DNA of 64,000 bases from an uncultured virus (IMG/VR IMGVR_UViG_3300013741_000003) (Duplodnaviria > Heunggongvirae > Uroviricota > Caudoviricetes), in IMG/VR virus record IMGVR_UViG_3300013741_000003; one strand, 5' to 3'. A program made the position numbers and the translations under genes. The notes beneath the pieces were generated by a model. The model saw only the letters and a list, made by a program, of their open reading frames with translations. It did not search any database and was not told the DNA's origin. Positions 4,112 to 54,138 of this stretch are shown here, piece after piece. Position 1 is the first letter of the stretch. Every line of letters starts with the position of its first letter.

Positions 4112-4505
4112 TTTCTCACCTTAGATTTAAAAAATAAATAACAATGTAAGTATATCAAAAATTGTCACACGGTACAATTTTTATTTTTCTGTTTTACATA
4201 TTTTTTTATATCAACTATAATATTATTGTCCTATTTACAATAAGGAAACTAAAATGGAAAACAAACAAAAACCTAATTATTCTACACCTGATGATCTTAC
4301 ATTGGCNNNNNNNNNNCATGACTTTCTCTTAAATTCATGGATTATAGATAGGATTATAACAAAAATCATTTTAACAGTACAGTTTTTTATTTGATTTTTT
4401 CTTTTCGTTATTTACGTGTATTGACAAAAAAGACTTGTATTACATCACGTAAAAGACTATACTTATCTTATTGAAACGACAAAGAACATTAACTTAAATA
4501 GGAAC

Positions 4506-8738: not shown

Positions 8739-9497
8739 ATGATTATACATAAAAAAATAGTTGTTCCAGATGACGTTAATCTCTTTTTTATTGGAGATAT
8801 TCATGGAGACTATAAAAACTTTAATGACGCTATAGGAATTGCTGGAGTTGTGGAAGGCGATTACATTATTGCTGTTGGAGATCTTATTGACCGTGGCAAC
8901 GGGGTAGCTCCTTTGCTTTTTGATTTCCTTCATAAACCTAATTACCATGCTGTTATTGGTAATCATGAAGAAATGATGATTAATGTTCATGAACCTTATA
9001 ACAGAGATTTATGGCTTTACATGGGTAATGGTGGAGATAAAACACTTGAACAGTTGGGTTGGGAAGGCGTGAAATACTTTACTGACCTTATTGTTAAAAA
9101 ATTTCCTATTATTCTTGAAGTTCATCATCGTGGTAAGACGTTTGGTGTTATTCATGCTTGTGCTCCTCTTTTGTATGAGAATACGGAAAATTGGAATGAT
9201 ATTATTAAACTTGCTAAAAAAGATCCTGATTATAGAGAACAGCTATATCAAGATGTAGATCTGCATCGTAAGTTAAGAAATGCGCATAATGAAGGAGGAC
9301 AAGAAAAAGAAAATGTTCTTAATACATTTAAAGCTATTAAAGGGATTGACTATATTTTCCACGGTCATGTAGGTGTTACTGAACCTTTTATTCATCATAA
9401 TATGGTATGGATTGATACAATGTTCTTGGATGATACTTTTACTCTTGCTAATTTTGATGAAAAAACAAATAAATTAACATTCTTAAATACCAAATAA
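8739..9497 (+). CDS. metallophosphoesterase (lambda NinI/PPP-like phosphatase)
   Basis: GDIHG, GDLIDRG, GNHE, HA, GH and IDT motifs. Confidence 0.9.
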   Translation: MIIHKKIVVPDDVNLFFIGDIHGDYKNFNDAIGIAGVVEGDYIIAVGDLIDRGNGVAPLLFDFLHKPNYHAVIGNHEEMMINVHEPYNRDLWLYMGNGGDKTLEQLGWEGVKYFTDLIVKKFPIILEVHHRGKTFGVIHACAPLLYENTENWNDIIKLAKKDPDYREQLYQDVDLHRKLRNAHNEGGQEKENVLNTFKAIKGIDYIFHGHVGVTEPFIHHNMVWIDTMFLDDTFTLANFDEKTNKLTFLNTK

Positions 9498-13435: not shown

Positions 13436-14800
13436 TTAGTTTGAATATGGATCAGCACTTGCCCAAGAACTATTATCTGTTGCTGATGTTTGAACTGGAC
13501 TTTCGTATACAGGCTCATGGCTAGGGCTTACTGTCTGGTTGAATACATTATTATCTTCAACAACGCTTGCTTGATGATTAATAACTTCTTTTTCCACCTC
13601 TACAGGAGCTACAAAATTTTCTTGCTCTACTTCCTTATCAGGAACATATAGATAACCTGAAAGATCATTTGCTTTTCCTACATTAGAACAAAAATCAAAA
13701 GAGCTATCCAATGTAAATCCTGCTCCAAGAGCGGAGCCTACCTGATTTGTATGCCAGTTACCAATAAAGTTATCACCATCTTGAACCATTTCAAGGCTTG
13801 TAGAACTACCATTTTCAGACACAAATGAAACATTCAGTTTACCTAATTCATCAGGAACAATAATGTTTTTCTCACCTGTTTGTGTTCTTAACTCACATGA
13901 ATTAGTTGCTGTATCAAACTTCAATACACCGATTTCATTAGTTTTATCTACGTCATCAAAAAGTTTGACAGTGTAACCCTCTGGATTATGACGTACTTCA
14001 CTCGAAGCTACATTTTCAAAACCAGAAATATTATGGATATTATCATCAATGATACGTTGATTAATATTATCACCTAAATCATTAAAGTATAAGAACCACG
14101 CAAGAGTAGAATGTGGTCTAAACATTAATGCCAACTCTGGATTATAAAAAGCTAGTAGGTCATTTAGTGGATCAGTGTCAAAATTATTCCTCTGACTAAC
14201 TACATTTTTTTGAGAAACTTTAGTAATAATCTTCTGTTTTTGCTGTTCTTTTTCTTTCAGAACTTTAACTTTGTTTGAAAGATTTACTTCTTCTTGTTGC
14301 ATTTTGAAGTAAAAATCTTGTACATTTTTTACCTGATAATCAGAAACATCTTCCAAGAAGAACATAAACGATGAATGTTTAACTTCAACTTTAAAAGATT
14401 TACCACTTTGAGAAAGAATAGATACTAATGTTTTAAAATCTTTATCTTTAATAATGAAAGCTGTTTCATCATTTACCAATACTTGATCACAAGCAATAAC
14501 AATAGTATTAGCTACAATAAAGCTATTATTGATACCGTTTTCTGTAAAATCATTAAACGCATTCTTATATTGTGTTTTATCTTTTTCGATATCTTTAAAG
14601 GTTTCTTTAAGTAAGTCTCTATTAAGATTAAAAGACATTACCTTAGCCATACAGCTATATTCTAAAGAACTCTTGCTTAGTTTTAATGGGATTGCCACAG
14701 GAATTTTTGAAAGCAATGTTTTTCCTTGCTCATCAATAACACTTAACTTACCTGCTTTATTCACTTTACCATTATGTTTAATTACTACGGTTAGAGTCAT
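13436..14800 (-). CDS. hypothetical protein
   Basis: 454-aa ORF with low-complexity C-terminus. Confidence 0.75.
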   Translation of the reverse strand: MTLTVVIKHNGKVNKAGKLSVIDEQGKTLLSKIPVAIPLKLSKSSLEYSCMAKVMSFNLNRDLLKETFKDIEKDKTQYKNAFNDFTENGINNSFIVANTIVIACDQVLVNDETAFIIKDKDFKTLVSILSQSGKSFKVEVKHSSFMFFLEDVSDYQVKNVQDFYFKMQQEEVNLSNKVKVLKEKEQQKQKIITKVSQKNVVSQRNNFDTDPLNDLLAFYNPELALMFRPHSTLAWFLYFNDLGDNINQRIIDDNIHNISGFENVASSEVRHNPEGYTVKLFDDVDKTNEIGVLKFDTATNSCELRTQTGEKNIIVPDELGKLNVSFVSENGSSTSLEMVQDGDNFIGNWHTNQVGSALGAGFTLDSSFDFCSNVGKANDLSGYLYVPDKEVEQENFVAPVEVEKEVINHQASVVEDNNVFNQTVSPSHEPVYESPVQTSATDNSSWASADPYSN

Positions 14801-14887
14801 TATTTTTACCTTTTTAGATTAATGTTGAGCTATTATACATATTGTTGTTATCTCTTGCAATCTATTTATTTACGTAAAAAAGAGAGC

Positions 14888-15127
14888 CTAAGCTCTCTCT
14901 GTTTTAATATTTCCACATTTATTTATTTGCTCAATTATTCTTTCTTGAGTTAATGGATTGCTTAGATCAAGCTTAACAATACCATCTTTATTAATTGTAT
15001 AAGTCCCTTGATTTTCTTTTAAAGCTTTAAACAGTCGTTGTTCATTATAACTTCTTGGGGAATCTTTTTTTGATAAAAACTTTTTTATTCGATGTAGAGT
15101 GATTTTCTTCATTTTAAAACCTCTCAT
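14888..15127 (-). CDS. small hypothetical protein ending in TAG
   Basis: ORF directly downstream of the RNA island; start likely MKKITL. Confidence 0.55.
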   Translation of the reverse strand: MRGFKMKKITLHRIKKFLSKKDSPRSYNEQRLFKALKENQGTYTINKDGIVKLDLSNPLTQERIIEQINKCGNIKTERA

Positions 15128-15136
15128 AGTTTGAGG

Positions 15137-15237
15137 TGGTGGTTGCCGCAGGATTTGAACCTGCCCTTAACAGCCTACACAATAGGGTATTGCTACCTGT
15201 TTTATCGCCTGTCATAGTGTCCAGCTATCCAACAACC
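15137..15237 (-). ncRNA. anticodon-less tRNA-like RNA with encoded CCA
   Basis: GGTTGTT/GGCAACC-A-CCA acceptor; GCAGG-TTCAAAT-CCTGC T-arm; ATAG/CTAT D-like arm; extended arm capped by GGTA-GCAA-TACC. Confidence 0.75.
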
Positions 15238-15346
15238 AATGGTCCGGGTTATAGTCATCCCCGGTTTCGCTTGTTCCAGACTAATGCCCCATGTTGGCAG
15301 GAGCTACACAAACATTTTTAAACATTTTAAAAAATCCTATTAGTTT

Positions 15347-15461
15347 ATAAAATTTTACGATTCGTCGTAGAGTGTGCTTTTCTTTGTAATCTTTTGTTCG
15401 CTTTTGTGATTACCAAATACTTGCCTCAGTCATTTACGATAGCGCGTTAACGCCAACTTAT
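15347..15461 (-). ncRNA. unknown structured RNA, copy 1
   Basis: homologous to 15500-15630 with compensatory stem changes. Confidence 0.65.
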
Positions 15462-15499
15462 TTTTATCTAACTATTAATTTATTTAAATATTCAAATTA

Positions 15500-15630
15500 G
15501 AGGAAGCTTCACGATTCGTCGCAAAATCCGTCAGGGCCAGTCCCTTTTCTCAGTCATTTTTTGTTCGCTTTATAATGACCTGATACTAAATAAACAAGAT
15601 TTTTTACACGATGGTATAACCAACTTCCTC
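15500..15630 (-). ncRNA. unknown structured RNA, copy 2
   Basis: GAGGAAG/CTTCCTC closing stem; GTCATT-[ATAAAGCGAACAAAA]-AATGAC hairpin; CGA-CGAA-TCG hairpin. Confidence 0.65.
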
Positions 15631-15648
15631 TTTTCTACTTCATTTTTA

Positions 15649-16236
15649 CCTTAAAGTCGTAGATGTTCCTTTAAGATATTTCAAGTTACAAGTGGTAGGG
15701 GCTAATTCTCCTACTTAACTGCCGTTTATGGAGACGCTTACGAGTTGCAAATTCGTTTTGCGGATAACAATATCAACAGCATCATGTCTGCTCAACCATA
15801 CCGTATTAGCTTACGGATTCACTTGGCTCTGAGAGCTTATATCACATATACCAGAAATAGTTACATATAATAAAGCTAACAGAAATCGGGAACAAGGAAC
15901 CACCCTATACTTCCCTAATAAATTTTTCAACCACGGCTTGAAGTGGGCCTTTATCTTGTGGCTATAGCTTATAGCATCTGGTGGTTAGCCATAGCTACGT
16001 TCTTCTCTTAGTTTTAAGCATTTGGAGATTGCTCGACGGCACTCGAATAAACACTCTAAACTAACTGTAACCATCTGACTAAGTTAACGGTGAAGGTTGT
16101 CACCTACTGGTTCAAGCTGCCAGTCAACATTCGCATTCCTTCTCGTCTTCAGCGAACTTATACCCGTCTGTCTTTTTGGAACTCAAACCAGACAGAAAAA
16201 TGAAGATATAACAGCATCAGTCTCACCTGTTATTCT
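15649..16236 (-). ncRNA. large ornate ncRNA candidate (~590 nt; ROOL-like in size and context, family unverified)
   Basis: no credible ORF, many hairpins, two 7-bp loop-loop complementarities, directly 3' of tRNA-Leu. Confidence 0.55.
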
Positions 16237-16244
16237 TTTGAGTT

Positions 16245-16329
16245 TGGTACTCCGGGTCGGACTCGAACCGACAAACCTTGCGGCGTTAGGACCTAAACCT
16301 AATGCGGTTACCAATTTCGCCACCGGAGC
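16245..16329 (-). tRNA. tRNA-Leu(TAG)
   Basis: full cloverleaf, TTAGG-TT-TAG-GT-CCTAA, long variable arm, ACCA end. Confidence 0.95.
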
Positions 16330-16384
16330 ATTGCGGAAAACACTGCCTATCTCTGATAGGGATGTATATTAGTCTTTTCCTATG

Positions 16385-16448
16385 ATTAGTTTATGTAGGG
16401 ACTTGAACCCCAGCGCTACTTAAAGCACTCCGTCACGCCCTAACCAAT
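16385..16448 (-). ncRNA. minimal or degenerate tRNA-like element
   Basis: TGGGG-TTCAAGT-CCCTA T-arm within ATTGGTT/AACTAAT stem; begins at predicted transcription start. Confidence 0.4.
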
Positions 16449-16454
16449 GAAAAC

Positions 16455-16483
16455 ATTATAGCTAAAACTTTTATGAAAAACAA
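16455..16483 (-). promoter_or_regulatory. sigma70-like promoter for the left half of the RNA island
   Basis: TTGTTT-N17-TATAAT. Confidence 0.65.
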
Positions 16484-16559
16484 CTCTTTTTTCTTTCTTT
16501 TTTTAATTATTATCATGAATTTAGGTGTTACAATACTTGTTATAGCTGGATATTTTTAT

Positions 16560-16889
16560 TTAATATATTTCTAATGGTTTTATTACTCTTGGATACATCA
16601 AAACAGTTATATTTTTCTCTATCGTTTTATTTATAAAATCTCTAACATCTTTATTTGATAGACTTAAAAGATGGACATAATTATCATACTTTTCTATTTT
16701 ATCGTCTTTTAATGTTATTATTTTCATATCATGATATGTATCTACATTATATCCAGTGATCATAAAATAAAACGTATCCTCTTTCTCATTAAAAAATGAA
16801 AAAGTAATAATTTCGCCATTCTTTTTATTTAATTCTTTTTTTACAATCTCTTTTTTACTTTCAAGCTCTAAAATATTTAAAATAGTCAT
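16560..16889 (-). CDS. hypothetical protein inside the RNA island
   Basis: 109-aa AT-rich ORF with AGGAG SD. Confidence 0.6.
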   Translation of the reverse strand: MTILNILELESKKEIVKKELNKKNGEIITFSFFNEKEDTFYFMITGYNVDTYHDMKIITLKDDKIEKYDNYVHLLSLSNKDVRDFINKTIEKNITVLMYPRVIKPLEIY

Positions 16890-16993
16890 ACACTCACTCT
16901 CCTTTTTTAGAATAAAACACTATTCTTATTAAAAAGTAAAATCTATTTTAATTTATAATGAAGGGAATTTTAAGTGAAATAAAGGGTAGAGGT

Positions 16994-17086
16994 GATTGTA
17001 AAAGCGTTGGATTCGAACCATTAATGCCTGATCAAGGGCAACACTCCCGTAGGTCTGGACCATCTTAACTTACAACTTTTACAATC
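16994..17086 (-). ncRNA. tRNA-like RNA with 11-bp terminal stem
   Basis: GATTGTAAAAG/CTTTTACAATC perfect stem, TGG-TTCGAAT-CCA T-loop, followed by ACCT. Confidence 0.55.
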
Positions 17087-17161
17087 TTTTTAGTGGGAGC
17101 TTCTGATCAGAAGCAGCTACGGGCATCCCACAAAACAACTGATTAACGTCTATGTATTTGT

Positions 17162-17193
17162 AAAATAAAACTCCTTTCCAATTAGAAAAGGAG
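17162..17193 (-). terminator. intrinsic terminator of large ncRNA
   Basis: CTCCTTT..AAAGGAG hairpin then TTTTATTTT. Confidence 0.7.
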
Positions 17194-17945
17194 CCGATAT
17201 TGCCTTCTACACCGGTTTGAAGACAACCTGCCTTTTCCTACTTCGCAATCCAGCCCTAATAGGCTAACAGGCTGGCGCTAAGCCTTCAGTCCGGCTAAGA
17301 CATCCTCTTTTCTTGTTATTCCATAGCGAGTAACCTTTCTATGGCAAGAGTGTCGATTTAAAGAAGCAAGACACTATACCTCCTTTTGAAAAGATGGGGA
17401 GTCTCACCCCAACTTTGTTATTGATTACGTCAAGCGCTATAGCAATCAACCTGCATTCAGATAATATTCGCTTATAACCTTTTATGCTACAGTTATAAGC
17501 TATACTCATTAATTTACACTTATAGTGAGTACCCTATAAGCGAGTGCTAGTTTAAAGAACAGCACTAATTCTTGAATAACTCCCGTCGAAACGACAGTAT
17601 CCCTATCATTTGCCCATAATGAATGATTATCTTTAAACAAGAATCCTTTTGGATCGAGCAAAGCGTACACATTCGGGCTATCAAGTTGGACGGCTGAGAA
17701 ACTTCACTTTGGAAAAGCTATCCCGCAGATATTTCTAACGCAAGGACCACAACTTAAATTTTGTGGCGTTCGAGGAAGTTTGAGGCTTTAAATATCTCAA
17801 ACACTCAGCGATTTCTCTCGTTTTTATAAAAATGCCCCTGATCGCAACATCAGGTATTTTTGATTAGTAAATCCAATTACTTTGGAAGAAATCTGATTTA
17901 CCTACATGCCAGATTCTAAAACTGGCCCCATCTAGACATTAGCTT
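17194..17945 (-). ncRNA. large ornate ncRNA candidate (~750 nt; GOLLD-like in size and context, family unverified)
   Basis: ORF-free and hairpin-dense, GTGAGA-loop hairpin, two TTTAAA-core long-range pairings; 5' boundary approximate. Confidence 0.55.
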
Positions 17946-18082
17946 TAAGTTTCCCGTTCCCGTCTATTTTATTTAGAAACGTAACTTTTTGTTTGCTGTT
18001 CCACCAGCTACCAGAACATTTAACTGGCAATTAGGTTGGAGTCATCGCTCCTTAGTCAGAAACTGAACACGCGAACGCATTC

Positions 18083-18175
18083 TTGTATCAGCATCAGGAT
18101 TTGAACCTGACTGGTGTAAGGTTTACGCTCCTGATTACTCGGAGAACGCCTCACTGGTTCCAACAACTGCTGATA
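18083..18175 (-). ncRNA. anticodon-less tRNA-like RNA
   Basis: ATCAGCA/TGCTGAT-A-CAA acceptor; TCAGG-TTCAAAT-CCTGA T-arm; extended GTGAGG/CCTTAC + CTCC/GGAG arm. Confidence 0.65.
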
Positions 18176-18189
18176 TTTTTTAATTTAAA

Positions 18190-18399
18190 ACTATTCAAGC
18201 TTTGTTAACATATAGGTAGTTTAGTCATCGTATCACGCAATAATACTTATAATCTTCTCAGCAGAGGCGAATCCGCGTCAATGAAGGGCTACCAGTTAAC
18301 TCTATCTCACGTATTTCGACAGAACATGCTGCTCTGCTAATCGCTTGACTCTAATCAGTTTACGAGACTGATGTTAAAACGAGGGTGCTCTTGAATAGC
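18190..18399 (-). ncRNA. unknown ~210-nt structured RNA
   Basis: GCTATTCAAG/CTTGAATAGT closing stem; nested TTAACAT/ATGTTAA, AGCAGAG/CTCTGCT and ATCAGT/ACTGAT helices. Confidence 0.55.
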
Positions 18400-18447
18400 T
18401 TTTTAATACCTTACTTCTTTTTGATAATAGTATTAGCTACTAATATC

Positions 18448-18593
18448 TGGTGTCGTTTCAGGAATCGAACCTGAGACTTGAAGAACTACTATCCGCGCTA
18501 TAACACTCAGCCAACTCTCCTTTCGGGACAGTGCAGGAATTAAACCTACGTTTTCGGACTACGCCTTCTGTTTTACCACTAAACTAATACGAC
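18448..18593 (-). ncRNA. double-tRNA: tRNA body whose anticodon loop is replaced by a circularly permuted second tRNA body
   Basis: outer D, anticodon stem, T and ACCA intact; the insert has T-arm, loop-closed acceptor and D-arm in permuted order. Confidence 0.8.
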
Positions 18594-18797
18594 ATTGTTT
18601 TGAGAGCTTATGATTATTCCTCTCTCGCCTTTAAACAAAACACCCACGAAACGCAGTATGCCTTATCCTAATCACTCGCCCTACGGCATCGCAGAGCGGT
18701 CAGGTTTTCTATTTTATTAAAGGAGGCTTCAAAGTTCTGCTCTTTACAGACAATGTAGTGGAATTTCATTACTACTCATTGCCGCCTCAAGAACTAC

Positions 18798-18826
18798 ATC
18801 TTACCAAAACCCAAACTCATAATCAA
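18798..18826 (-). promoter_or_regulatory. internal promoter of the RNA island
   Basis: TTGATT-N17-TAAGAT with extended TG; GTAGTTCTTGA immediately downstream, also seen after the TG-n-TATATT at ~19102. Confidence 0.55.
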
Positions 18827-18855
18827 CTACTTTTTTACTATTTTCTTATTTTTTA

Positions 18856-19048
18856 GGATGGCTGGCACTGATCTCCAGCTTGTCTATAACACCTGCTAGT
18901 TAACACCGGAGTCTCACCGGGGCGAAGATTTCACAGGAGCTTTATTGGGACAGTGCTGGATTACAACGTGCTTACTTAACCGATTACATCCAGCGATATC
19001 TACTTCCCATCAGGTCTTACACTTTCCCGTCAGTCCGGGACTTCATCC
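18856..19048 (-). ncRNA. manA-like structured RNA (193 nt)
   Basis: GGATG/CATCC closing stem; 5' CCCG-GACTGA-CGGG loop complementary to 3' GCTGG-AGATCAGTG-CCAGC loop; CCGG-TGAGACT-CCGG hairpin; family call from recall. Confidence 0.55.
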
Positions 19049-19172
19049 ACTTAATAATAAAAAGCTAGAGTTTTAACCAGTCTTCTTTGCTTCAAGAACT
19101 ACAATATACCAACTTCACTGCTTAAACCCCGGAAGTCACCCTAGATGTACCCCGGAAGTTAAATACATAATT

Positions 19173-19257
19173 TGGTGCTCCAAGAGGGACTTGAACCCTC
19201 ACACCTTTCGGTAACAGATTTTGAGTCTGCCGCGTCTACCGATTCCACCATCAGAGC
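19173..19257 (-). tRNA. tRNA-Leu(CAA)
   Basis: full cloverleaf, GCAGA-CT-CAA-AA-TCTGT, long variable arm, ACCA end. Confidence 0.95.
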
Positions 19258-19261
19258 AATA

Positions 19262-19411
19262 TGGCAGGAGTAGAGGGATCGAACCTCACTTGATAAATAA
19301 CATTATTGAGAGCGACTCAACATTGTTCTTTATTCATAGACCAAAGGATACCTACCTTCCACATTAACTTCACCAGCGCTAGCTAAGAAAATGTGTGCCT
19401 ATGCTTCTCCT
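19262..19411 (-). ncRNA. 150-nt anticodon-less tRNA-like RNA with encoded CCA
   Basis: AGGAGAA/TACTCCT-G-CCA acceptor; GAGG-TTCGATC-CCTC T-arm; two large inserted helical domains. Confidence 0.7.
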
Positions 19412-19416
19412 ATTCT

Positions 19417-19490
19417 TGGTGTCAATGGAGGGAATCGAACCCACATCCAGAGTTTTAGAGACTCCTGCTCTACCGTTAAGCTACAAAGAC
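19417..19490 (-). tRNA. amber suppressor tRNA (anticodon CTA)
   Basis: cloverleaf with GGAGT-CT-CTA-AA-ACTCT, normal D-arm, TTCGATT loop and ACCA; two T-T mismatches in acceptor, one in T-stem. Confidence 0.8.
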
Positions 19491-19503
19491 ACGTTTTACT
19501 TGT

Positions 19504-19545
19504 CACTACAGAAATGATTCTAGCAAAACACTATCTGTAGTGCAA
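19504..19545 (-). promoter_or_regulatory. promoter of the RNA island with overlapping inverted repeat
   Basis: TTGCAC-N17-TAGAAT; CACTACAGA/TCTGTAGTG at 19504-19512 and 19534-19542. Confidence 0.65.
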
Positions 19546-19553
19546 GAACTTTT

Positions 19554-19964
19554 TCAATTATCCTTTTTATATACAGCAATTGTATTTTCTAAACTATAAT
19601 TTTCTTTATATTTTTTAGATAAATACTCCATAAAACCTTTATTAATTTCTCTATTGTCGTTACGGTTTTCAACGTTATACCAACAATTTTCTAAATTATT
19701 TTCGAAAAAAATCCATTCTGTTTCTTTTATCATTAATCCCAATAACATTTTATTTAAAGAACTTTCTGCTTTTTCCATAGTTACTGTACACAACATTGGA
19801 TCAGCAATATATAGGGTTTCTTCTTCTGAAGCTTTGAAAGCATTTAACTTGTCAATATTTAAAGAAAAATCATCAATGACAAAACCTTTTTTTATTTTTG
19901 ATAATAAAGTTGTTTTCCCTGATCCGGGTAAACCAACATAGAAAACAACTTTAATATTTCTCAT
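19554..19964 (-). CDS. small P-loop kinase (AAA_33/PNK kinase-like)
   Basis: GLPGSGKT Walker A, VIDD, lid-like NVENR. Confidence 0.7.
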   Translation of the reverse strand: MRNIKVVFYVGLPGSGKTTLLSKIKKGFVIDDFSLNIDKLNAFKASEEETLYIADPMLCTVTMEKAESSLNKMLLGLMIKETEWIFFENNLENCWYNVENRNDNREINKGFMEYLSKKYKENYSLENTIAVYKKDN

Positions 19965-19976
19965 ATTAAACCCTTT

Positions 19977-20354
19977 TTATTCTGGTATAATTTCTTTTAA
20001 ACCATCAAACAGATTTTGAGTATTCAACTTTTTAATCATATAATCAGTGGAGTTACCATAATATTCATAATTAGTTTTTTCACTGATATCCCATAATGAT
20101 TTCTGCTCAAGCTTTTTAAATTGTAAAAATGTTAAGTTTGGACAAACCATTTCAAGTAATTCAATAAATACCATTGGATCTTCTGGCTCTGGTTCGGCTG
20201 AAACTGAATGATGATGATCTGCATTCCAACAAGAACCTCCTTCTTGACCACCTACGACCCATTTTTTGGAAATTGGAAAGATTTTCTTTTTAAATTCTTT
20301 TTCTATAGCTTCTTCAAACTGTTTTACATTTTTAAACTCATGAATACTAATCAT
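19977..20354 (-). CDS. phage hypothetical protein
   Basis: W..GGQEGGSCW and EYYGN motifs. Confidence 0.7.
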   Translation of the reverse strand: MISIHEFKNVKQFEEAIEKEFKKKIFPISKKWVVGGQEGGSCWNADHHHSVSAEPEPEDPMVFIELLEMVCPNLTFLQFKKLEQKSLWDISEKTNYEYYGNSTDYMIKKLNTQNLFDGLKEIIPE

Positions 20355-20447
20355 TTATTTTTCCTCAAAATCAGATTTTATTAGCTATCTCTATAAAACC
20401 ACTATAGCTGATTCTATTATTATGCACAACTCTTTTTATGCTATTTC

Positions 20448-20765
20448 TTATTTCTCAATAAAATGCTTGCCATTAACAACAATTTCTTCTTTAGGTTTTA
20501 CTGGAGCTGTTTCTACTTTAGTTTTTTCTTCTGTTACTACTACCTGACTATTTACTTTACCTAACATCGTTGTAGTTGTAGTTGAAAGAGGGCAGCGGAT
20601 AGCATAGATTACAATACCACTTTCATTATTCATTTTATAAATAACACAATCTTTCATACCTTCGGGCAAAATGAAGTTACTGCTTGCTTCTTCGGTTCTC
20701 TTTTCACAACCAGATAAAGCAAAAATTGATGCACAGATAAGACAAGCCATAAATATTTTTTTCAT
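20448..20765 (-). CDS. lipoprotein
   Basis: LSGC lipobox; promoter at 20813-20841. Confidence 0.75.
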   Translation of the reverse strand: MKKIFMACLICASIFALSGCEKRTEEASSNFILPEGMKDCVIYKMNNESGIVIYAIRCPLSTTTTTMLGKVNSQVVVTEEKTKVETAPVKPKEEIVVNGKHFIEK

Positions 20766-20971
20766 AAAAACTCCTGATAAAAGTTATAGTTAGAAACATA
20801 AAATCAAAAAATAGTATAACAAGAATGTGTCAGATGTACAACAACTATTTGTTTTATTAAACTATAAAAATCTATTGACTCTCACACCTCATCTATTTTA
20901 TTATAGCTCTGATGTAAAAAATCATACTGAGCTAACGACTCTTTAATTAAACTTTAATTGGAGAATCGTGT

Positions 20972-21259
20972 ATGAAAAATGAAATTGAAATGAGTGTTTT
21001 TGAGATTTGTCGTAAAAATATTAAAATGCCATTAGAAGAACTTTTTCAATGGTTAGGTATTAGCGAAGAAGAACGTTATTCACTTGATTTTGGAAGTTGT
21101 TTGATTCGTTTTCTTGATAATGGTTCTGCTCAATTTAGTTGTTCAAAATCTGATTTTGATCGTTGGGCTAACTCACAAGAATACGAGTTTGATTTATATC
21201 GTCCTTCTGAACGTCGTGCCTTTTTAAATATTTTTGAGTCAAAAATGCAAGAAGTATAA
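20972..21259 (+). CDS. hypothetical protein
   Basis: GGAG SD; TTGACT-N17-TATTAT upstream. Confidence 0.65.
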   Translation: MKNEIEMSVFEICRKNIKMPLEELFQWLGISEEERYSLDFGSCLIRFLDNGSAQFSCSKSDFDRWANSQEYEFDLYRPSERRAFLNIFESKMQEV

Positions 21260-27081: not shown

Positions 27082-27091
27082 NNNNNNNNNN
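27082..27091. other. scaffold gap probably hiding another family A gene
   Basis: N run flanked by an MLKTK start and a duplicated intergenic spacer. Confidence 0.7.
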
Positions 27092-27161: not shown

Positions 27162-28286
27162 TTACATAAACAATATATAATCATAACCCTCTTTGTAATA
27201 CTTTTCCTTTTCTGGTGTTAGATTTCCAAAATATTTTTCATAAAATTTTGCCTGATTTATTATTGGATTATCTTCTTCATTAACATCTTCTTCATCAACA
27301 TCTTTTTTATTCATCATATAATCTATAGTCATATAAATCGGAGTTCCTAAAACATAGTTACCTGCCATTTTTCTCACTGGATCTTCTACAGTAATATGAG
27401 CAAATGCATTTCCTATTTTAAATAACTCTTTTAGTTTATCATAATTTCCATTCTCATAATAAGTTTTTACTCTCTGATTTATTGAATTAACGACTTCATC
27501 ATTTTGCTTGTAAACTTTTTTTATTTCTGGACTATTATAATCATAATTCGTTTTCTTAATAACATCATTTATATTTTTTATATAACTCTTATCTATAAAA
27601 AAAGTTTGTCCATCAAATCCATTTTCAATTAATATTTGCTTTAAATTATCATACATCTTTTTGTCACTTTTATAATAAAAAGTATCATTTAAAATAAAAT
27701 TACTGTACACACTTTTCATTAATCTAACATCATTCAAATCTGCTTTATGTTTTGTATTTTTCTTATAAACTTCTTGGATTTTTTTATTAAACTCTGGATA
27801 CTTATTATTATCGAATACTTCTTTTTCAGAGTGATTTCTGGTTAATAATTCTAGTTCACTATAATATGCTATAGGATTATTTATCTTCATATTAACTGAC
27901 ATTATTCTATTTAAACTAACTCCAACCCCTTTATCAAACATAAATGCCTTTTGAAAAGCCGGATTATCACCCCCTTTATAACCATAAATATATTCAAAAG
28001 TTAACAGATCTCTTTTAAAATCAGCATCAGAATACGGAACAGCAGATATCATTTTTTTAAATGTGCTGTAATCATTTAATTTCGCATCATTTGCTACTTT
28101 ATAATCTACTATAAATGTTGTATGTTTTATATTGGCAGCAGTGATAGCTACATCATATGCAGCAATAGATCCAACAATCATAGCAAATCCCATAGCTATT
28201 GTTTTCAGTATACTTTTTTTCTTAAGTGTCTTATTCAAACTTCTAGATTTGGTTTCAAACTCTACTTTATTTTTTGTTTTTAACAT
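27162..28286 (-). CDS. membrane-anchored paralog family A member
   Basis: N-terminal half nearly identical to 25932-27026. Confidence 0.8.
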   Translation of the reverse strand: MLKTKNKVEFETKSRSLNKTLKKKSILKTIAMGFAMIVGSIAAYDVAITAANIKHTTFIVDYKVANDAKLNDYSTFKKMISAVPYSDADFKRDLLTFEYIYGYKGGDNPAFQKAFMFDKGVGVSLNRIMSVNMKINNPIAYYSELELLTRNHSEKEVFDNNKYPEFNKKIQEVYKKNTKHKADLNDVRLMKSVYSNFILNDTFYYKSDKKMYDNLKQILIENGFDGQTFFIDKSYIKNINDVIKKTNYDYNSPEIKKVYKQNDEVVNSINQRVKTYYENGNYDKLKELFKIGNAFAHITVEDPVRKMAGNYVLGTPIYMTIDYMMNKKDVDEEDVNEEDNPIINQAKFYEKYFGNLTPEKEKYYKEGYDYILFM

Positions 28287-28368
28287 ATTATCTCACCCAC
28301 TTATATTATTATATCAGTATAATATATGATTTATTTTTATACAATTATTTTAAAGCAGATTCACACTT

Positions 28369-29295
28369 TTACTTTATTCCGCTAATCTTAATAATATTTT
28401 TATATTGATCTTGCTCAACAAGAATAGTGTTAAATGATGTATCTATAATAATTTCGGCATCATCCTTTTTTGCCCTACCATTAAATACACATACCGTCCA
28501 AGCATCTGTTGTTATTCTACCTATTTTTTCATATCCTTCTGTAATCATTTTATTATTACTAGATTCATAATCATATTCTTTTTCATCCTCAAATAAATTA
28601 CCTATGATAATCTCTTCACCTTTTTTCCAAACAATCGGTGAACTATTACCTACATTAAAACGAGCAACATTCTTTTTAGCCCAACGTTTCATTTCGTTAT
28701 AATCACCAAGACTTGTCCCAAGCTGAGGTCCGTCAAAATTCATAGGGAGATTAATGCTTCTCATAAAGTTTGAAATACCTATTTTTCCATTAACTTTTAT
28801 TTTAACCTTAAACTCATTATCTAAATTAATACATTTATGATTATCTTTGTATACAACAAACTCTTTTTTCTCTAGGTCAAGAGCATAAAAATATCTTGAA
28901 GAGCATTCCCAGCAAAAATGTTCTTTATGAGAAGACTTCACTTGATTTTCATAAATAAAATCCATAATTTCATTTGAAATACCCATTATTAAACTATAGA
29001 ATATACTTATAATAATCATTTCGAAAAAATCTTCTTTAAAAAAAGAGGGATCTATCAACTCTTTTTTAATAGCATCATTTAAAGTAATATTTTGTTTTTC
29101 AAAAATAAGGTTATTATTTAATGTATTATCTACTTTATAATTAAGACCCTTAGCTATTTCTTTTATTTCATTTTTTATATTTGGATAATCATTAAATATA
29201 GCAGCAATGAATTGATGTTTACCAATGTATTCTTTTAAATCATGTTTTTCTATTAAAAATGTTAATCTATTTATAATTTCTTGCTTAATATTCAT
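28369..29295 (-). CDS. paralog family D member (CxxC)
   Basis: CWECS, VNGKIGISN.MRS and DAWT shared with 36587-37516. Confidence 0.75.
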   Translation of the reverse strand: MNIKQEIINRLTFLIEKHDLKEYIGKHQFIAAIFNDYPNIKNEIKEIAKGLNYKVDNTLNNNLIFEKQNITLNDAIKKELIDPSFFKEDFFEMIIISIFYSLIMGISNEIMDFIYENQVKSSHKEHFCWECSSRYFYALDLEKKEFVVYKDNHKCINLDNEFKVKIKVNGKIGISNFMRSINLPMNFDGPQLGTSLGDYNEMKRWAKKNVARFNVGNSSPIVWKKGEEIIIGNLFEDEKEYDYESSNNKMITEGYEKIGRITTDAWTVCVFNGRAKKDDAEIIIDTSFNTILVEQDQYKNIIKISGIK

Positions 29296-29306
29296 TTTAT
29301 ATCCTT

Positions 29307-29678
29307 TTATTTAAAGAAAAATGTATCTACTTGGAATAATAATTTAGCTTTATCTCTTTTAAAAATCAGTTGAGATAATCCTTGCCTTACATTTGAAGAA
29401 TCAATTTCATAAGTAGATAAAACAGCTCCAAGTTTTCCAAGCTGAATGCGCCAATAAGGATTGAACACCCATTTATGGTAATGTTCTACACTCTCAAATC
29501 CGAAAATATAGTGATAATCTGATAAATCATCAAAACGCAATTTAGGATCAAGATGAGGTAATGGATGAAGAGAGGTATCTTCAAAATCTTTTGTTACACG
29601 TTTCCATATGCTTTTTTCGGCATTCCTATAAATACCATCACCATTCGGCATTTCTAAGCGTAGAATTTGCATTAGCAT
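29307..29678 (-). CDS. phage hypothetical protein
   Basis: RLE...G.GIY, HPLP..D, FGFES. Confidence 0.65.
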   Translation of the reverse strand: MLMQILRLEMPNGDGIYRNAEKSIWKRVTKDFEDTSLHPLPHLDPKLRFDDLSDYHYIFGFESVEHYHKWVFNPYWRIQLGKLGAVLSTYEIDSSNVRQGLSQLIFKRDKAKLLFQVDTFFFK

Positions 29679-29687
29679 ACTATATCC

Positions 29688-29996
29688 TCAGACCCCATGA
29701 ATACTGATGATTCTATCTTTTGATACAGGCTCTAAACAAAATACCTCAAAACTAATAACAGAATGTAAAGTTAATCCAGAACCATTTACTGTTATCAACT
29801 GGATTTCTTCATCTTCCTCAAACAGTTCTCCAAGCCAGTTAGATAAACCTTCCTCTGCTTCTTCTATACTTGGAAAAAAATAAATTGCTGGTTGAGGCTC
29901 TCCTAATGCCATAGAATTTTTACCAATCAAAGGTTTAAAACCTTCTACAGCTATTTTGTCAGCATTCTTTTTACTGGTAATGTGATATAAGTTCAT
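29688..29996 (-). CDS. possible ADP-ribosyltransferase-fold protein
   Basis: LYHIT....I..EGFKP...AIYF. Confidence 0.45.
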   Translation of the reverse strand: MNLYHITSKKNADKIAVEGFKPLIGKNSMALGEPQPAIYFFPSIEEAEEGLSNWLGELFEEDEEIQLITVNGSGLTLHSVISFEVFCLEPVSKDRIISIHGV

Positions 29997-52793: not shown

Positions 52794-52919
52794 TTTATCT
52801 CCTTTTATTTTTCAAAAATATTAACTTATTTTTTTATGGAAAACAAAGTTATTTTATTGTGTTATTTAGTGTCTTTGTTATCATTGATTTATAATAAATA
52901 TATAATAAGGAACCTGTAA

Positions 52920-53657
52920 TTGAAAACTGTAAAACTATATCATGATGATTGCTTAAAAATCATGGAAACTATTCCAACAGCAAGCATTGATCTTATTTTA
53001 TGTGATTTACCCTATGGAACAACTCAGAATGAATGGGACACTATAATTCCTTTTGATTTATTATGGGAACAATATATGCGTATTAGTAAAGGCGCTATCG
53101 TTCTCTTTGCTGCGCAACCTTTCACATCGCTTCTTATCAGCTCTAACTTAAAATACTTTAAATATGATTGGGTATGGGAAAAAACAAAAGCTACGGGCCA
53201 TTTAAATGCTAAAAAACAGCCATTACGAAATAAGGAAGATATTCTTGTATTTTATAAAAAACAACCTACCTATAATCCTCAAATGAGTAAAGGTGAGCCT
53301 TATAAAAATAAAACAGGAAAAGATATTAATGGTTCGTCATCTATGACAGCATCTTATGGTAAGTATACCAATAAAAGAAATGAAAATACGGGTTTTAGAT
53401 ATCCAAAACAAATACTTAAATTTAACACTGTACAAAGAAATACATTACATCCTACTGAAAAACCTGTTCCATTATTAGAATACCTTATTAAAACTTATAC
53501 TAATAAAGGAGACGTGGTTCTTGATAACTGCATGGGGTCTGGTAGTACTGGTGAAGCAGCTATTAATCTTGATAGACAATTTATTGGAATAGAACAAGAA
53601 CTTAAGTTTTTTACTAAAGCTTTAATAAGAATAGATAATGCAAGATTAAAAAAATAA
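52920..53657 (+). CDS. orphan DNA methyltransferase (N6A/N4C, beta class)
   Basis: DLPY catalytic motif precedes HPTEKP and DNCMGSGST SAM-binding motif. Confidence 0.9.
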   Translation: MKTVKLYHDDCLKIMETIPTASIDLILCDLPYGTTQNEWDTIIPFDLLWEQYMRISKGAIVLFAAQPFTSLLISSNLKYFKYDWVWEKTKATGHLNAKKQPLRNKEDILVFYKKQPTYNPQMSKGEPYKNKTGKDINGSSSMTASYGKYTNKRNENTGFRYPKQILKFNTVQRNTLHPTEKPVPLLEYLIKTYTNKGDVVLDNCMGSGSTGEAAINLDRQFIGIEQELKFFTKALIRIDNARLKK

Positions 53658-53676
53658 AGCCCCGAAGGGCTTTATT

Positions 53677-53901: not shown

Positions 53902-54138
53902 AAATAACTCCTCTGTTATTGAGTATGTAAAGCTTTTAAAACTAACAGATTTTATGAACGCCCTTAAAATCACTTCAAAACCTACTATACCACCTTCTTT
54001 TATTGAATACAATCAAAATATGACAAAATAATATACTAACCCTTTTGATAAATACAAACACGAGATATCTTTTTAAATTTTAATATATTTAATTCTTACC
54101 ACGTTACTTCTTTAAATGCAGATGTTATTTAAAAATAA

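What the first reader, a model, noticed from the sequence alone, without database searches (positions are those of the whole stretch)
15137..19545. A 4.4-kb phage RNA island dominated by anticodon-less tRNA mimics and unknown ncRNAs
Seen: in a genome otherwise packed with ORFs, this more GC-rich stretch has one small credible CDS and only three conventional tRNAs. It holds at least six elements that keep a T-arm and acceptor-like stem but have no normal anticodon loop (15137, 16385, 16994, 18083, 18448, 19262; three encode CCA), and at least six other closed structured RNAs. All are co-oriented behind their own promoters and separated by short AT spacers. Each mimic replaces the anticodon arm with a different well-paired domain, which looks like remodelling rather than decay. 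Inference: the tRNA acceptor/T-arm serves as a processing and stability chassis carrying RNA cargo, or the set is a decoy arsenal against host anticodon nucleases (PrrC, RloC, PARIS AriB) or other tRNA-sensing defences.
Basis: partly seen in the sequence, partly recalled or inferred. Interest (0 to 1): 0.9.

Follow-up and report, generated by a model that had tools for sequence, protein, structure and literature searches.

The report
Jumbo-phage island of tRNA look-alikes
A gene-poor 4.4-kb stretch of a very large phage genome holds three normal tRNA genes, several tRNA-shaped genes with no usable anticodon and some other folded RNAs; similar odd phage tRNA genes have been reported before, and their role is still unknown.

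Summary
Window 15137-19545 is ORF-poor and richer in G+C than its flanks. All its features lie on the minus strand. It holds three canonical tRNAs: Leu-UAG, Leu-CAA and an amber suppressor with anticodon CUA.

It also holds four convincing tRNA-derived elements (M1, M4, M5, M6) and two weak ones (M2, M3). These keep an acceptor stem and a T arm, and three end in an encoded NCCA. None passes as a tRNA.

T-arm signals are far above chance. However, only three or four promoters serve about 15 units. Evidence for folding is moderate. No expression data could be obtained.

The window belongs to a roughly 340-kb, 30% G+C jumbo phage. Its close relative G001 carries 17 such orphan T arms, a Ro60/TROVE gene and a T4-type RNA ligase 1.

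Four near-identical genomes gain and lose whole cassettes here, including an IscB/HEARO insertion.

The closest precedent is the "enigmatic introns" in Lak megaphage tRNAs. Earlier notes of this scan describe insert-bearing tRNA genes in Patescibacteria.

My best reading is non-decoding RNAs with tRNA-like ends that are cut out alongside the real tRNAs. Their function is unknown. The decoy and Ro60-partner ideas remain untested.

The parts
19517..19545 (-). Promoter P1 (-35 TTGCAC, 17-nt spacer, TG-extended -10 TAGAAT), upstream of the suppressor tRNA
   Evidence: Read. Aligns with a promoter family that has 6 further copies in G001.
19417..19490 (-). tRNA with anticodon CUA (amber suppressor; ARAGORN labels it 'Pyl' from the anticodon alone)
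   Evidence: ARAGORN. Rfam RF00005, 59 bits.
19262..19411 (-). M6: tRNA-like RNA with an acceptor-like helix of 8 pairs (one A.A mismatch), a 4-bp T stem with a 7-nt UUCGAUC loop (not the usual T-loop consensus) and an encoded GCCA end. About 110 nt of branched cargo replaces the D and anticodon arms.
   Evidence: Sequence and MFE fold. Fold z = -2.0. 5-nt and 4-nt spacers to the flanking tRNAs. Locus L030 carries a second, paralogous copy, M6b. No Rfam match at E <= 10.
19173..19257 (-). tRNA-Leu (CAA)
19103..19108 (-). -10 box of promoter P2. Its -35 box is missing in the window. In G001 and L029 an IscB/HEARO insertion splits this promoter.
18850..19105 (-). RNA A, about 255 nt. It starts with the same 13 nt as RNA B and contains a CCGG-UGAGACU-CCGG hairpin. 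The whole cassette is absent from L030.
   Evidence: Fold z = -1.64 on minus against -0.31 on plus.
18798..18826 (-). Promoter P3 (-35 TTGATT, 17-nt spacer, TG-extended -10 TAAGAT)
18596..18796 (-). RNA B, about 200 nt
   Evidence: Fold z = -1.96 on minus against -0.67 on plus. 3 of 4 varying predicted pairs stay paired.
18448..18593 (-). M5: a tRNA scaffold with an acceptor stem (6 of 7 pairs), a canonical D arm, a 5-bp anticodon-like stem, a 5-nt variable loop, a T arm and an encoded ACCA. About 80 nt replaces the anticodon loop, and this insert contains a second T-arm-like hairpin.
   Evidence: ARAGORN -i at default threshold reports 'tRNA-Stop(tta) with a 72-nt intron'. Rfam tRNA gives a partial match of 23.7 bits, below the 29-bit cut-off. 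Two perfect T arms. No U33 can be recovered at either edge of the insert (read).
18172..18447 (-). RNA C, about 275 nt. It is invariant in three of the four genomes and differs at one base in G001.
   Evidence: Fold z = -1.99 on minus against -0.31 on plus..
18086..18174 (-). M4: tRNA-like RNA with a perfect 7-bp acceptor stem, a perfect T arm and no CCA. A 4-bp stem with a 9-nt loop stands in place of the anticodon arm. It is identical in all four genomes.
   Evidence: No Rfam match at E <= 10.
17582..18082 (-). RNA D, about 500 nt
   Evidence: Fold z = -3.12 on minus against -1.51 on plus. Of 146 predicted pairs, 14 vary: 9 on one side and still paired, 4 on both sides and still paired, 1 broken. 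Slid controls show 0 pairs changed on both sides.
17383..17581 (-). 199-bp hairpin-rich element. It is present in the window and G001 and absent from L029 and L030. It is bounded by an 18-nt direct repeat and contains a GGGG-UGAGACU-CCCC hairpin.
   Evidence: (repeat D14). Fold z = -3.4 on minus and -3.0 on plus.
17076..17382 (-). RNA E, about 300 nt, ending in a strong terminator-like hairpin at 17195-17169
   Evidence: Fold z = -3.02 on minus against -1.36 on plus..
16994..17075 (-). M3: weak tRNA-like element with a T-loop sequence on a 3-bp stem, 7 possible acceptor pairs and no CCA
   Evidence: Fold z = +0.4.
16560..16889 (-). The island's single CDS, 109 aa, with a ribosome-binding site. 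It matches no family.
16455..16483 (-). Promoter P4 (-35 TTGTTT, 17-nt spacer, -10 TATAAT, with an A tract upstream)
   Evidence: Paralogous copies elsewhere in G001.
16385..16450 (-). M2: a perfect T arm inside a 66-nt hairpin RNA, with an offset acceptor-like pairing and no CCA
   Evidence: Fold z = -1.9.
16245..16329 (-). tRNA-Leu (UAG). In L029 and L030 it is replaced by an allele that differs at 12 of 85 positions and carries compensatory stem changes.
15641..16244 (-). RNA F, about 600 nt
   Evidence: Fold z = -2.45 on minus against -1.26 on plus.
15330..15640 (-). Two tandem, partly repeated AT-rich units, with no sign of folding
   Evidence: Repeats D5, D15 and D18. Fold z about 0.
15137..15320 (-). 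RNA H (15238-15320) followed by M1 (15137-15237). M1 has a 7-bp acceptor stem (two G.U pairs), a D arm, a perfect T arm and an encoded ACCA. A 43-nt domain stands in place of the 17-nt anticodon arm.
   Evidence: ARAGORN finds M1 only at a relaxed threshold, as 'Tyr(gta) with a 28-nt intron'. Rfam matches only the tmRNA 3' end, at 8.7 bits.

Best explanation
This is the stable-RNA (tRNA) region of an AT-rich jumbo phage of about 340 kb. It is read leftward from a few sigma-70-like promoters as multi-gene precursors.

Besides three decoding tRNAs, it encodes tRNA-derived RNAs that keep the part of a tRNA recognised by the processing enzymes: an acceptor stem stacked on a T arm, often with an encoded CCA. 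Their anticodon region is replaced by, or swollen with, a 25-110-nt domain, so they cannot decode.

The tRNA-like ends most likely let RNase P and the 3'-trimming enzymes cut these RNAs, and the folded RNAs between them, out of the precursor. They would then persist as stable small RNAs, in the way the T4 tRNA cluster yields extra stable RNAs.

What is shown: the anatomy, the enrichment over chance, the promoters, the genome context and the turnover of cassettes. What is inferred: transcription, processing and stability.

The downstream function is unknown. My leading guess is that these are tRNA-shaped RNAs that engage tRNA-binding factors, either the phage's own Ro60/TROVE protein and RNA ligase 1 or a host tRNA-sensing defence. 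They belong to the same phenomenon as the 'enigmatic introns' reported in Lak megaphage tRNAs.
For: - T-arm and acceptor signals are confined to the island and far above chance: 7 of 7 strict T arms; relaxed ARAGORN gives 9 models against 1 elsewhere, and 0 in 20 shuffles.
- M1, M4 and M5 have intact acceptor stems and T arms, and M1, M5 and M6 carry an encoded NCCA like all three real tRNAs here.
- M6 lies between two tRNAs with 4-5-nt spacers.
- G+C is 0.37-0.41 in a genome of about 0.30, with no ORFs.
- Eight larger segments (seven between the tRNA-like elements, plus M6) fold better than shuffles. For five of them (A-E) the minus strand is better than the plus strand by 1.3 or more z units; for F the difference is 1.2, and for the indel element and M6 the strands score alike.
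- Unit D shows 4 pairs changed on both sides that still pair, against 0 in the slid controls.
- Three promoters match a family found across G001.
- The pattern is genome-wide. In G001, 17 of 50 strict T arms lie outside called tRNAs, all on the minus strand and nearly all in tRNA arrays.
- G001 encodes a TROVE/Ro60 protein with no Y RNA beside it and a T4-type Rnl1.
- Precedent: Lak phage tRNAs carry 23-141-nt insertions in the anticodon loop, some holding a tRNA-like fold (passages and Table S6 read).
Against: - No expression, end-mapping or processing data could be obtained.
- Only four genomes at 96-99% identity were available, so there is almost no covariation to test the tRNA-like elements themselves. 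M4 has 0 variable sites, and M1's 5 variable sites are all unpaired.
- The island is not consistently better conserved than the neighbouring CDSs. Differences are 0.82% against 1.59% (G001), 2.26% against 0.45% (L029) and 2.75% against 3.79% (L030).
- Blind sliding windows show no excess of folding.
- M1, M3, M4 and M5 fold no better than shuffles.
- None of the six reaches the Rfam tRNA cut-off.
- Cassettes come and go between near-identical genomes, as expected of dispensable DNA.
- The TROVE and Rnl1 genes were seen only in G001, outside the window and 55 kb or more from the island.
Confidence: 0.42

Rival explanations
1. Debris of cassette turnover. The look-alikes are dead tRNA genes, or tRNA genes hit by small insertion modules and recombination in a hyper-dynamic tRNA region. 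They may be transcribed by read-through but have no function of their own.
For: - Four near-identical genomes differ by whole cassettes: a 1.7-kb IscB/HEARO insertion, loss of RNA A, an extra M6b copy, a 199-bp indel bounded by direct repeats, and a swapped tRNA-Leu allele.
- M5 looks like a tRNA with a partial tRNA-like piece nested in its anticodon loop.
- G001's tRNA arrays are highly repetitive.
- There is no consistent excess of conservation.
- Earlier notes of this scan describe insert-bearing and nested tRNA genes in Patescibacteria as insertion modules (unchecked AI notes).
Against: - The stems that matter for processing are intact, while the middle is replaced rather than eroded.
- High G+C is kept in a 30% G+C genome.
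- No look-alike is a recent copy of any of the 34 tRNAs in G001.
- No paralogues of the cargo exist elsewhere in G001, so these are not copies of one mobile insert.
- M4, M5 and RNA C are invariant or nearly so across the four genomes.
Confidence: 0.27
2. Intron-bearing functional tRNAs. The extra domains are intervening sequences that are removed to give decoding tRNAs, as was proposed for Lak phage tRNAs.
For:
- Two elements elsewhere in G001 score 46 and 43 bits as tRNAs with a large insertion.
- At least 117 IMG/VR stretches match a pattern for a D arm, 55-85 nt, then a T loop. All 20 that were scanned score 41.8-55.9 bits as tRNAs.
Against: - In M5 neither edge of the insert gives a loop with U33. 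In M1 the modelled anticodon stem has a mismatch and the intron position is not canonical.
- M4 and M6 give no model at all.
- The six elements in the window fall below the tRNA cut-off even with the insertion allowed.
- G001 has no RtcB, Rnl2 or PNK3P match, and no known bacterial enzyme removes such short introns (own knowledge).
Confidence: 0.08
3. Y-RNA-like partners of the phage Ro60. One or more look-alikes bind the phage's TROVE/Ro60 protein and tether it to a nuclease or to the repair ligase, as bacterial YrlA RNAs do.
For: - G001 encodes a TROVE protein: Pfam 26.9 bits against a cut-off of 23; best solved relative is the Thermus phage Ro60 at E 5.7e-17.
- The 350-nt gap upstream of it shows no folded RNA (fold z = -0.29) and no Rfam hit, so its partner RNA would lie elsewhere.
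- Bacterial Y RNAs mimic tRNA with T and D arms and an acceptor-like stem (passages read).
- Jumbo phages with TROVE are expected to have a tRNA-like partner (passage read).
Against: - The Rfam YrlA model finds nothing in the island at E <= 10.
- The arm order here is that of a tRNA (D then T) with free ends, not YrlA's T arm, closed acceptor hairpin, then D arm.
- I did not find the GNCGAAN0-1G motif by eye.
- The TROVE gene is about 55 kb away and was seen only in the relative G001.
Confidence: 0.1
4. Decoys against tRNA-targeting immunity. The look-alikes soak up or mislead host anticodon nucleases or tRNA-sensing defence proteins.
For: - The phage invests heavily in tRNAs: 34 in G001.
- It carries a T4-type Rnl1, whose classic role is repair of nuclease-cut tRNA (the role is own knowledge).
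- Phage tRNAs are known to counter such defences (listing and abstracts only).
Against: - The anticodon loop, which is the usual recognition and cleavage site of these nucleases, is exactly the part that is missing.
- The host is unknown and no defence gene is known.
Confidence: 0.08

Closest known systems
'Enigmatic introns' in tRNAs of Lak megaphages (Devoto et al. 2019, PMC6784885; abstract, passages and Table S6 read)
   Same: Both are huge AT-rich phages with a CUA suppressor tRNA. Both have tRNA genes carrying 23-141-nt insertions in the anticodon loop, some of which hold a T-arm-like or tRNA-like fold, as M5 does. Both have large non-coding regions. Insert presence or absence varies between close genomes in both.
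   Different: The Lak cases are scored as tRNAs with a defined anticodon. The six elements here fail the tRNA models, three lack CCA, and they are concentrated in one island together with other folded RNAs. This phage shows no sign of TAG recoding. There is no sequence similarity to GenBank phages beyond the tRNA-Leu genes.
T4 tRNA-cluster stable RNAs, species 1 and 2 (recalled from my own knowledge; not checked in a paper here)
   Same: Extra small stable RNAs of unknown function are encoded among phage tRNA genes and are released from the same precursors.
   Different: T4 has two such RNAs. Here there are about six tRNA-like RNAs and seven larger ones. Homology could not be tested.
Bacterial Y RNAs of the YrlA type (Chen et al. 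2014, PMC4201824; passages read)
   Same: They are non-decoding RNAs that mimic the T arm, D arm and acceptor stem of tRNA. One of them is cut by RNase P and receives CCA. They are found in phages that encode Ro60, and the relative G001 encodes Ro60.
   Different: The arm order is permuted, the acceptor-like stem is closed, and a Ro-binding stem is formed by the two ends. YrlA genes lie next to the Ro60 gene. The Rfam YrlA model does not match the island.
tmRNA
   Same: It has an acceptor stem, a T arm and CCA, with the anticodon arm replaced by a large domain.
   Different: There is no tag reading frame and no pseudoknot array, and the sizes here are 90-150 nt. ARAGORN finds no tmRNA at its default threshold. 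Rfam matches only 17 nt of the 3' end, at 8.7 bits.
GOLLD and ROOL large phage RNAs found beside tRNA genes (location habit recalled from my own knowledge)
   Same: They are large, G+C-rich, structured phage RNAs next to tRNAs.
   Different: No Rfam match of any kind at E <= 10.
Engineered 'tRNA scaffold' for RNA expression, and the cellular mascRNA that is cut from MALAT1 (recalled; mascRNA papers seen only in the listing)
   Same: A tRNA-like module is used purely as a processing and stability signal for another RNA.
   Different: Those are a laboratory device and a eukaryotic case. No phage example turned up in my searches.

Membership tests
tRNA (Rfam RF00005 / ARAGORN) | Covariance-model score at or above 29 bits | tested here: not met
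   Of the six look-alikes, only M5 gives any match: 23.7 bits, partial, model positions 7-64. The other five give nothing at E <= 10. The three real tRNAs score 51-59 bits.
tRNA (Rfam RF00005 / ARAGORN) | A 7-nt anticodon loop with U33 on a 5-bp stem | tested here: not met
   M4 has a 9-nt loop on a 4-bp stem. M5's stem encloses about 80 nt, with no U33 at either edge. M6 has no such arm. M1 allows a 7-nt loop only with a mismatched stem.
tRNA (Rfam RF00005 / ARAGORN) | A 7-bp acceptor stem stacked on a 5-bp T stem with a T loop | tested here: met
   Met for M1, M4 and M5. M6 has an 8/4 arrangement with one mismatch. M2 and M3 are poor.
Intron-bearing phage tRNA (Lak type) | Recognised as a tRNA once an insertion in the anticodon loop is allowed | tested here: inconclusive
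   ARAGORN -i at default threshold calls M5 only. M1 and four long-range models appear only at -ps90. Two elements elsewhere in G001 do pass RF00005, at 46 and 43 bits.
YrlA / bacterial Y RNA | Match to the Rfam YrlA model | tested here: not met
   No hit at E <= 10 in 14000-21000. The model did fire weakly on IMG/VR tRNA pairs, so it was active.
YrlA / bacterial Y RNA | Gene lies beside a Ro60/TROVE gene | tested here: not met
   In G001 the TROVE gene is at 28032-29690 and the island is at 84-90 kb.
YrlA / bacterial Y RNA | Binds Ro60 | not testable with these tools
   Needs immunoprecipitation.
tmRNA | Tag reading frame plus a tRNA-like domain, detected by ARAGORN or Rfam | tested here: not met
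   None at default threshold. Only a 17-nt match to the 3' end, at 8.7 bits. The relaxed ARAGORN 'permuted tmRNA' calls were not taken as evidence.
IscB omega RNA (HEARO) | Match to Rfam HEARO next to an IscB ORF | tested here: not met
   Absent from the window. Present in G001 at the site that splits promoter P2, at 137 bits, beside a 431-aa RRXRR+HNH protein.
GOLLD / ROOL | Match to the Rfam models | tested here: not met
   No hit at E <= 10.

The most novel reading that the evidence does not exclude
Jumbo phages use the top half of a tRNA (acceptor stem, T arm and CCA) as a natural expression scaffold. A family of CCA-ended RNAs is cut out by the tRNA-processing enzymes. Their interchangeable middle domains are the working parts, for example partner RNAs for the phage's own Ro60 and RNA ligase, or baits for host factors that recognise tRNA shape. 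The cassettes are swapped between close genomes as the host changes.
Probability: 0.15. Interest if true: 0.85.

Novelty: new variant of a known kind. Interest (0 to 1): 0.55.

Why it matters
Phage tRNA genes are now seen as weapons in the contest over the host's translation machinery. What the non-decoding tRNA look-alikes do has been left open since they were noted in Lak megaphages.

This island packs four to six of them, plus other folded RNAs, into 4.4 kb. The phage also carries Ro60 and RNA ligase 1, and four near-identical genomes already show cassette gain and loss. That makes it a compact test bed.

A simple pattern search found at least 117 insertion-bearing tRNA-like genes in public viral contigs, so the phenomenon is widespread and under-annotated.

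If the look-alikes prove to be processed, stable RNAs with a role, they would be a new class of phage small RNA. If not, they document how quickly phage tRNA regions churn.

Tried and rejected
- **Alternative genetic code.** TAG or TGA read as sense opens no long frame in the island. Neither raises coding cover specifically in the window or in G001.
- **Known RNA families.** Rfam finds only the three tRNAs at gathering thresholds, and noise at E <= 10.
- **Relatives.**
  - GenBank phages: only tRNA-Leu similarity, no megablast match, and no tblastn match for the neighbouring 454-aa protein.
  - IMG/VR holds only G001.
  - The metagenome scan gave two loci at 96-98% identity.
  - GTDB genomes gave none.
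  - Homologues of the neighbouring protein at 75% and 41-45% identity exist only in collections whose DNA I could not fetch, so real covariation tests were impossible.
- **Paralogues of the cargo in G001.** None.
- **Recent descent from a G001 tRNA.** None.
- **Blind sliding-window fold scores.** No signal. An earlier version of that script timed out.
- **ARAGORN 'intron' models for the two insertion-bearing elements in G001.** Forced, with mismatched stems.
- **A hairpin 15-mer from the island in IMG/VR.** 25 loci with no shared context.
- **M5's D-arm 18-mer in IMG/VR.** A generic tRNA D arm found in His, Gly, Ala and other tRNAs, so it says nothing about M5's origin.
- **Resemblance to a CRISPR repeat.** A hairpin in one G001 element resembles a CRISPR repeat hairpin as I recall it. 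The pattern occurs at 3 loci in 341 kb, about what I estimate chance would give (my own rough estimate; no shuffle was run), so I dropped it.
- **Phage hallmark and RNA-repair genes in G001.** No match to Terminase_6N, RtcB, the CCA-adding enzyme family, PNK3P or Rnl2.
- **The 109-aa ORF.** No Pfam or PHROG match. The protein atlas was unreachable twice.

Full report
**What is at the coordinates**

Window 15137-19545 holds no ORF of 100 aa or more under table 11 except 16560-16889, which is 109 aa. Reading TAG or TGA as sense does not open long frames.

G+C is 0.37-0.41 in three of the five 1-kb bins that span the island. The adjoining bins are 0.28-0.29, and most of the window lies between 0.22 and 0.35.

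ARAGORN and Rfam agree on three tRNAs, all on the minus strand:
- Leu(UAG) at 16245-16329
- Leu(CAA) at 19173-19257
- a CUA-anticodon suppressor at 19417-19490

**Are the tRNA-like signals more than chance?**

Yes.
- A strict T-arm scan (5 paired bases, G-C closing pair, TTYRANY loop) finds 7 sites in 64 kb on both strands. All 7 lie in the island on the minus strand, and 5 of them lie outside the three tRNAs.
- ARAGORN with introns allowed and a relaxed threshold gives 9 models in the island against 1 in the remaining 59.6 kb. It gives none in 20 block-shuffled islands.
- A 9-nt motif (GGTGAGACT, a GC stem closing a T-loop-like UGAGACU loop) occurs three times, all in the island. Only 0.2 are expected, and 0 of 100 shuffles reach three. 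It occurs nowhere else in the 341-kb relative.

**Anatomy of the six 'mimics'**

- **M1 (15137-15237).** A 7-bp acceptor stem, a D arm, a perfect T arm and an encoded ACCA. A 43-nt domain stands where the 17-nt anticodon arm should be.
- **M4 (18086-18174).** A perfect 7-bp acceptor stem and T arm, no CCA, and a 9-nt loop on a 4-bp stem in the middle.
- **M5 (18448-18593).** The most tRNA-like. It has 6 of 7 acceptor pairs, a textbook D arm, a 5-bp anticodon-type stem, a 5-nt variable loop, a T arm and ACCA. About 80 nt replaces the anticodon loop, and that insert contains a second T-arm-like hairpin. ARAGORN -i calls M5 at its default threshold. Rfam gives a partial 23.7 bits. Neither edge of the insert supplies a U33.
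- **M6 (19262-19411).** An 8-pair acceptor-like helix with one mismatch, a 4-bp T stem and GCCA. It sits between two real tRNAs with 5-nt and 4-nt spacers.
- **M2 and M3.** These are weak: a T-loop hairpin with poor acceptor pairing.

None of the six reaches the tRNA cut-off.

The three CCA ends are correct.

**The other RNAs**

I cut the rest of the island into units at promoters and tRNA-like ends. The larger segments fold better than dinucleotide shuffles on the minus strand:

| Unit | z, minus strand |
|---|---|
| A | -1.6 |
| B | -2.0 |
| C | -2.0 |
| D | -3.1 |
| E | -3.0 |
| F | -2.45 |
| 199-bp element | -3.4 |

- The plus strand scores worse by 1.2 or more z units for units A to F. 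The 199-bp element scores alike on both strands (-3.4 and -3.0).
- Five CDS controls give -1.1 to +0.8.
- Blind 120-nt windows show no difference between island and flanks.
- The real tRNAs and M1, M3, M4 and M5 have z near 0, so this measure is insensitive to tRNA-like folds.
- In unit D, 14 of 146 predicted pairs vary among four genomes: 9 on one side and still paired, 4 on both sides and still paired, and 1 broken. Slid controls give 0 pairs changed on both sides. The structure was derived from the same alignment, which favours it.
- Over all units on the window's own MFE folds, 30 of 41 varying pairs stay paired. That is only mildly above what transitions alone would give.

**Promoters**

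The generic scan is not enriched: 20 found against 14.0 +/- 4.1 expected.

However, P1, P3 and P4 align with six further copies in G001 of a family with an A tract, a TTGnnn -35 box, a 17-nt spacer and an often TG-extended TAnnAT -10 box. P2 keeps only its -10 box in the window.

So the island has three or four transcription units, not one promoter per RNA.

**Whose genome is this?**

The window's own assembly is not held. The window is collinear at 88-98.7% identity with G001, a 341,648-bp virus record of 30.6% G+C.

Many window ORFs match phage protein families of unknown function. I did not find structural hallmark genes.

G001 has 34 ARAGORN tRNAs. Most are repeated Met(CAU), Leu(UAA) and Arg(UCU) modules, and two are CUA suppressors.

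In G001, 17 of 50 strict T arms lie outside called tRNAs. All are on the minus strand and nearly all are in tRNA arrays. Two of these elements pass Rfam's tRNA model at 46 and 43 bits as 131-nt and 119-nt genes with a large internal insertion.

G001 also encodes:
- A TROVE/Ro60 protein. Pfam scores 26.9 bits against a cut-off of 23. PHROG 'RNA-binding protein' scores 2e-38. The best solved relative is the Ro60 of a Thermus phage at E 5.7e-17. No folded RNA lies beside it.
- A T4-type RNA ligase 1.
- Two IscB genes, each with a HEARO RNA.

G001 has no match to RtcB, Rnl2, PNK3P or the CCA-adding enzyme family.

**Variation among close relatives**

A metagenome scan gave two further loci, L029 and L030, at 96-98% identity. 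The four genomes differ by whole cassettes:
- G001 and L029 carry a 1.7-kb IscB/HEARO insertion that splits promoter P2.
- L030 lacks RNA A.
- L030 has a second M6-like gene, M6b, which also ends in UGCCA.
- L029 and L030 lack a 199-bp hairpin-rich element that is bounded by direct repeats.
- L029 and L030 carry a tRNA-Leu(UAG) allele that differs at 12 of 85 positions and has compensatory stem changes.

The island is not consistently better conserved than nearby genes. M4 is identical in all four genomes. M5 and RNA C differ only in G001, by two bases and one base.

**Comparison with what is known**

The nearest precedent is the Lak megaphage report (abstract, passages and Table S6 read). [quoted passage not shown] One insert is itself predicted to fold as a tRNA. 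It also describes large, highly expressed intergenic regions. M5 is the same kind of object.

- All 20 loci that I scanned score 41.8-55.9 bits as tRNAs with an insertion.
- About 19 distinct genes share an insert made of a covarying hairpin followed by an invariant ACAGCAA.
- Only 14 of the 80 loci examined show an ordinary anticodon arm just before the variable loop, so the set is mixed. It also includes giant-virus tRNA-Tyr genes with introns, and tRNA genes followed by a tRNA fragment.

Bacterial YrlA Y RNAs mimic tRNA and occur in phages that encode Ro60. Their arm order, closed acceptor hairpin and position beside the Ro60 gene are not met here, and the Rfam model is silent.

The tmRNA, GOLLD/ROOL and HEARO models do not match the window.

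My literature searches found no description of an island of non-decoding tRNA look-alikes in a phage. Those searches cover open-access papers and bioRxiv preprints only.

Earlier notes of this scan report insert-bearing and nested tRNA genes in Patescibacteria, read there as insertion modules. Those are unchecked AI notes.

**Reading**

The most economical account is a phage stable-RNA region in which tRNA-like ends act as processing and stability signals for non-decoding RNAs that are cut out together with the real tRNAs.

The anatomy, the enrichment and the context are shown. Transcription, processing and any function are inferred.

The main rival is that these are by-products of rapid cassette turnover and of insertions into tRNA genes. 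The present data cannot separate the two, because there is no expression evidence and the relatives are too close.

The decoy and Ro60-partner ideas are sub-hypotheses about function and remain untested.

**Verdict**

This is a real and unusual feature, and a new variant of something already noticed but never explained. Interest is moderate to high (0.55).

Noticed in passing
window about 19118-19126; G001 88343-90083 (L013:8343-10083): G001 and L029 carry a 1.7-kb insertion that the window lacks. It holds a 431-aa IscB-type protein (RRXRR + HNH) with a HEARO/omega RNA upstream (137 bits). The insertion splits promoter P2. G001 has a second IscB+HEARO copy at about 15.5-17.2 kb.
   Followed up: partly
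window 19417-19490; G001 174814-174888: There are two CUA (amber-suppressor) tRNAs in a phage that shows no sign of TAG recoding. TAG ends 19 of 276 long ORFs in G001, and reading TAG as sense raises ORF cover no more than reading TGA as sense does. The island copy has two U.U mismatches in its acceptor stem.
   Followed up: partly
G001 170-190 kb and 298-300 kb: The tRNA set is dominated by repeated Met/Ile-type(CAU), Leu(UAA) and Arg(UCU) modules, with six or more copies of each. It also includes Leu(UAG), Pro(GGG) and Arg(CCU). These serve AT-rich or rare codons, which suggests codon supply for a host of different composition.
   Followed up: no
window 16245-16329 compared with L029/L030: The tRNA-Leu(UAG) gene differs at 12 of 85 positions between otherwise 98-100% identical flanks. 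D-stem and anticodon-stem changes are compensatory. This looks like a swapped tRNA allele.
   Followed up: partly
IMG/VR loci L032, L043, L047, L048, L060, L062, L068-L070, L078, L084, L090, L099 and others; G001 298296-298428: A recurrent insert in phage tRNA genes, not found in Rfam. It lies after the D arm and consists of an A-rich run, a 6-8-bp hairpin whose sequence covaries between genes, and then an invariant ACAGCAA. In several genes a normal-looking anticodon arm follows. About 19 distinct genes among the 80 loci examined carry it.
   Followed up: partly
G001 28032-29690 and 52819-53955 (outside the window): The relative encodes a Ro60/TROVE protein with no Y RNA beside it, and a T4-type RNA ligase 1. 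It also encodes a five-domain MutS, a methyl-accepting chemotaxis signalling domain protein and an M49 peptidase, all unusual for a phage.
   Followed up: partly
G001 8997-9136 (L009): A match to the enterobacterial sroH RNA family above its gathering score (90.6 bits against 80).
   Followed up: no
window 17383-17581: A 199-bp hairpin-rich element bounded by an 18-nt direct repeat. It is present in the window and G001 and absent from L029 and L030. It folds well on both strands, in the manner of a small mobile or deletion-prone palindromic element.
   Followed up: partly
window 19127-19172: A short direct repeat (ACTTCCGGGG) occurs twice just downstream of tRNA-Leu(CAA). L030 carries a third, slightly different copy.
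   Followed up: no
window 4307-4316, 27082-27091, 63096-63105: Three runs of 10 N, which are assembly gaps or masked stretches.
   Followed up: no
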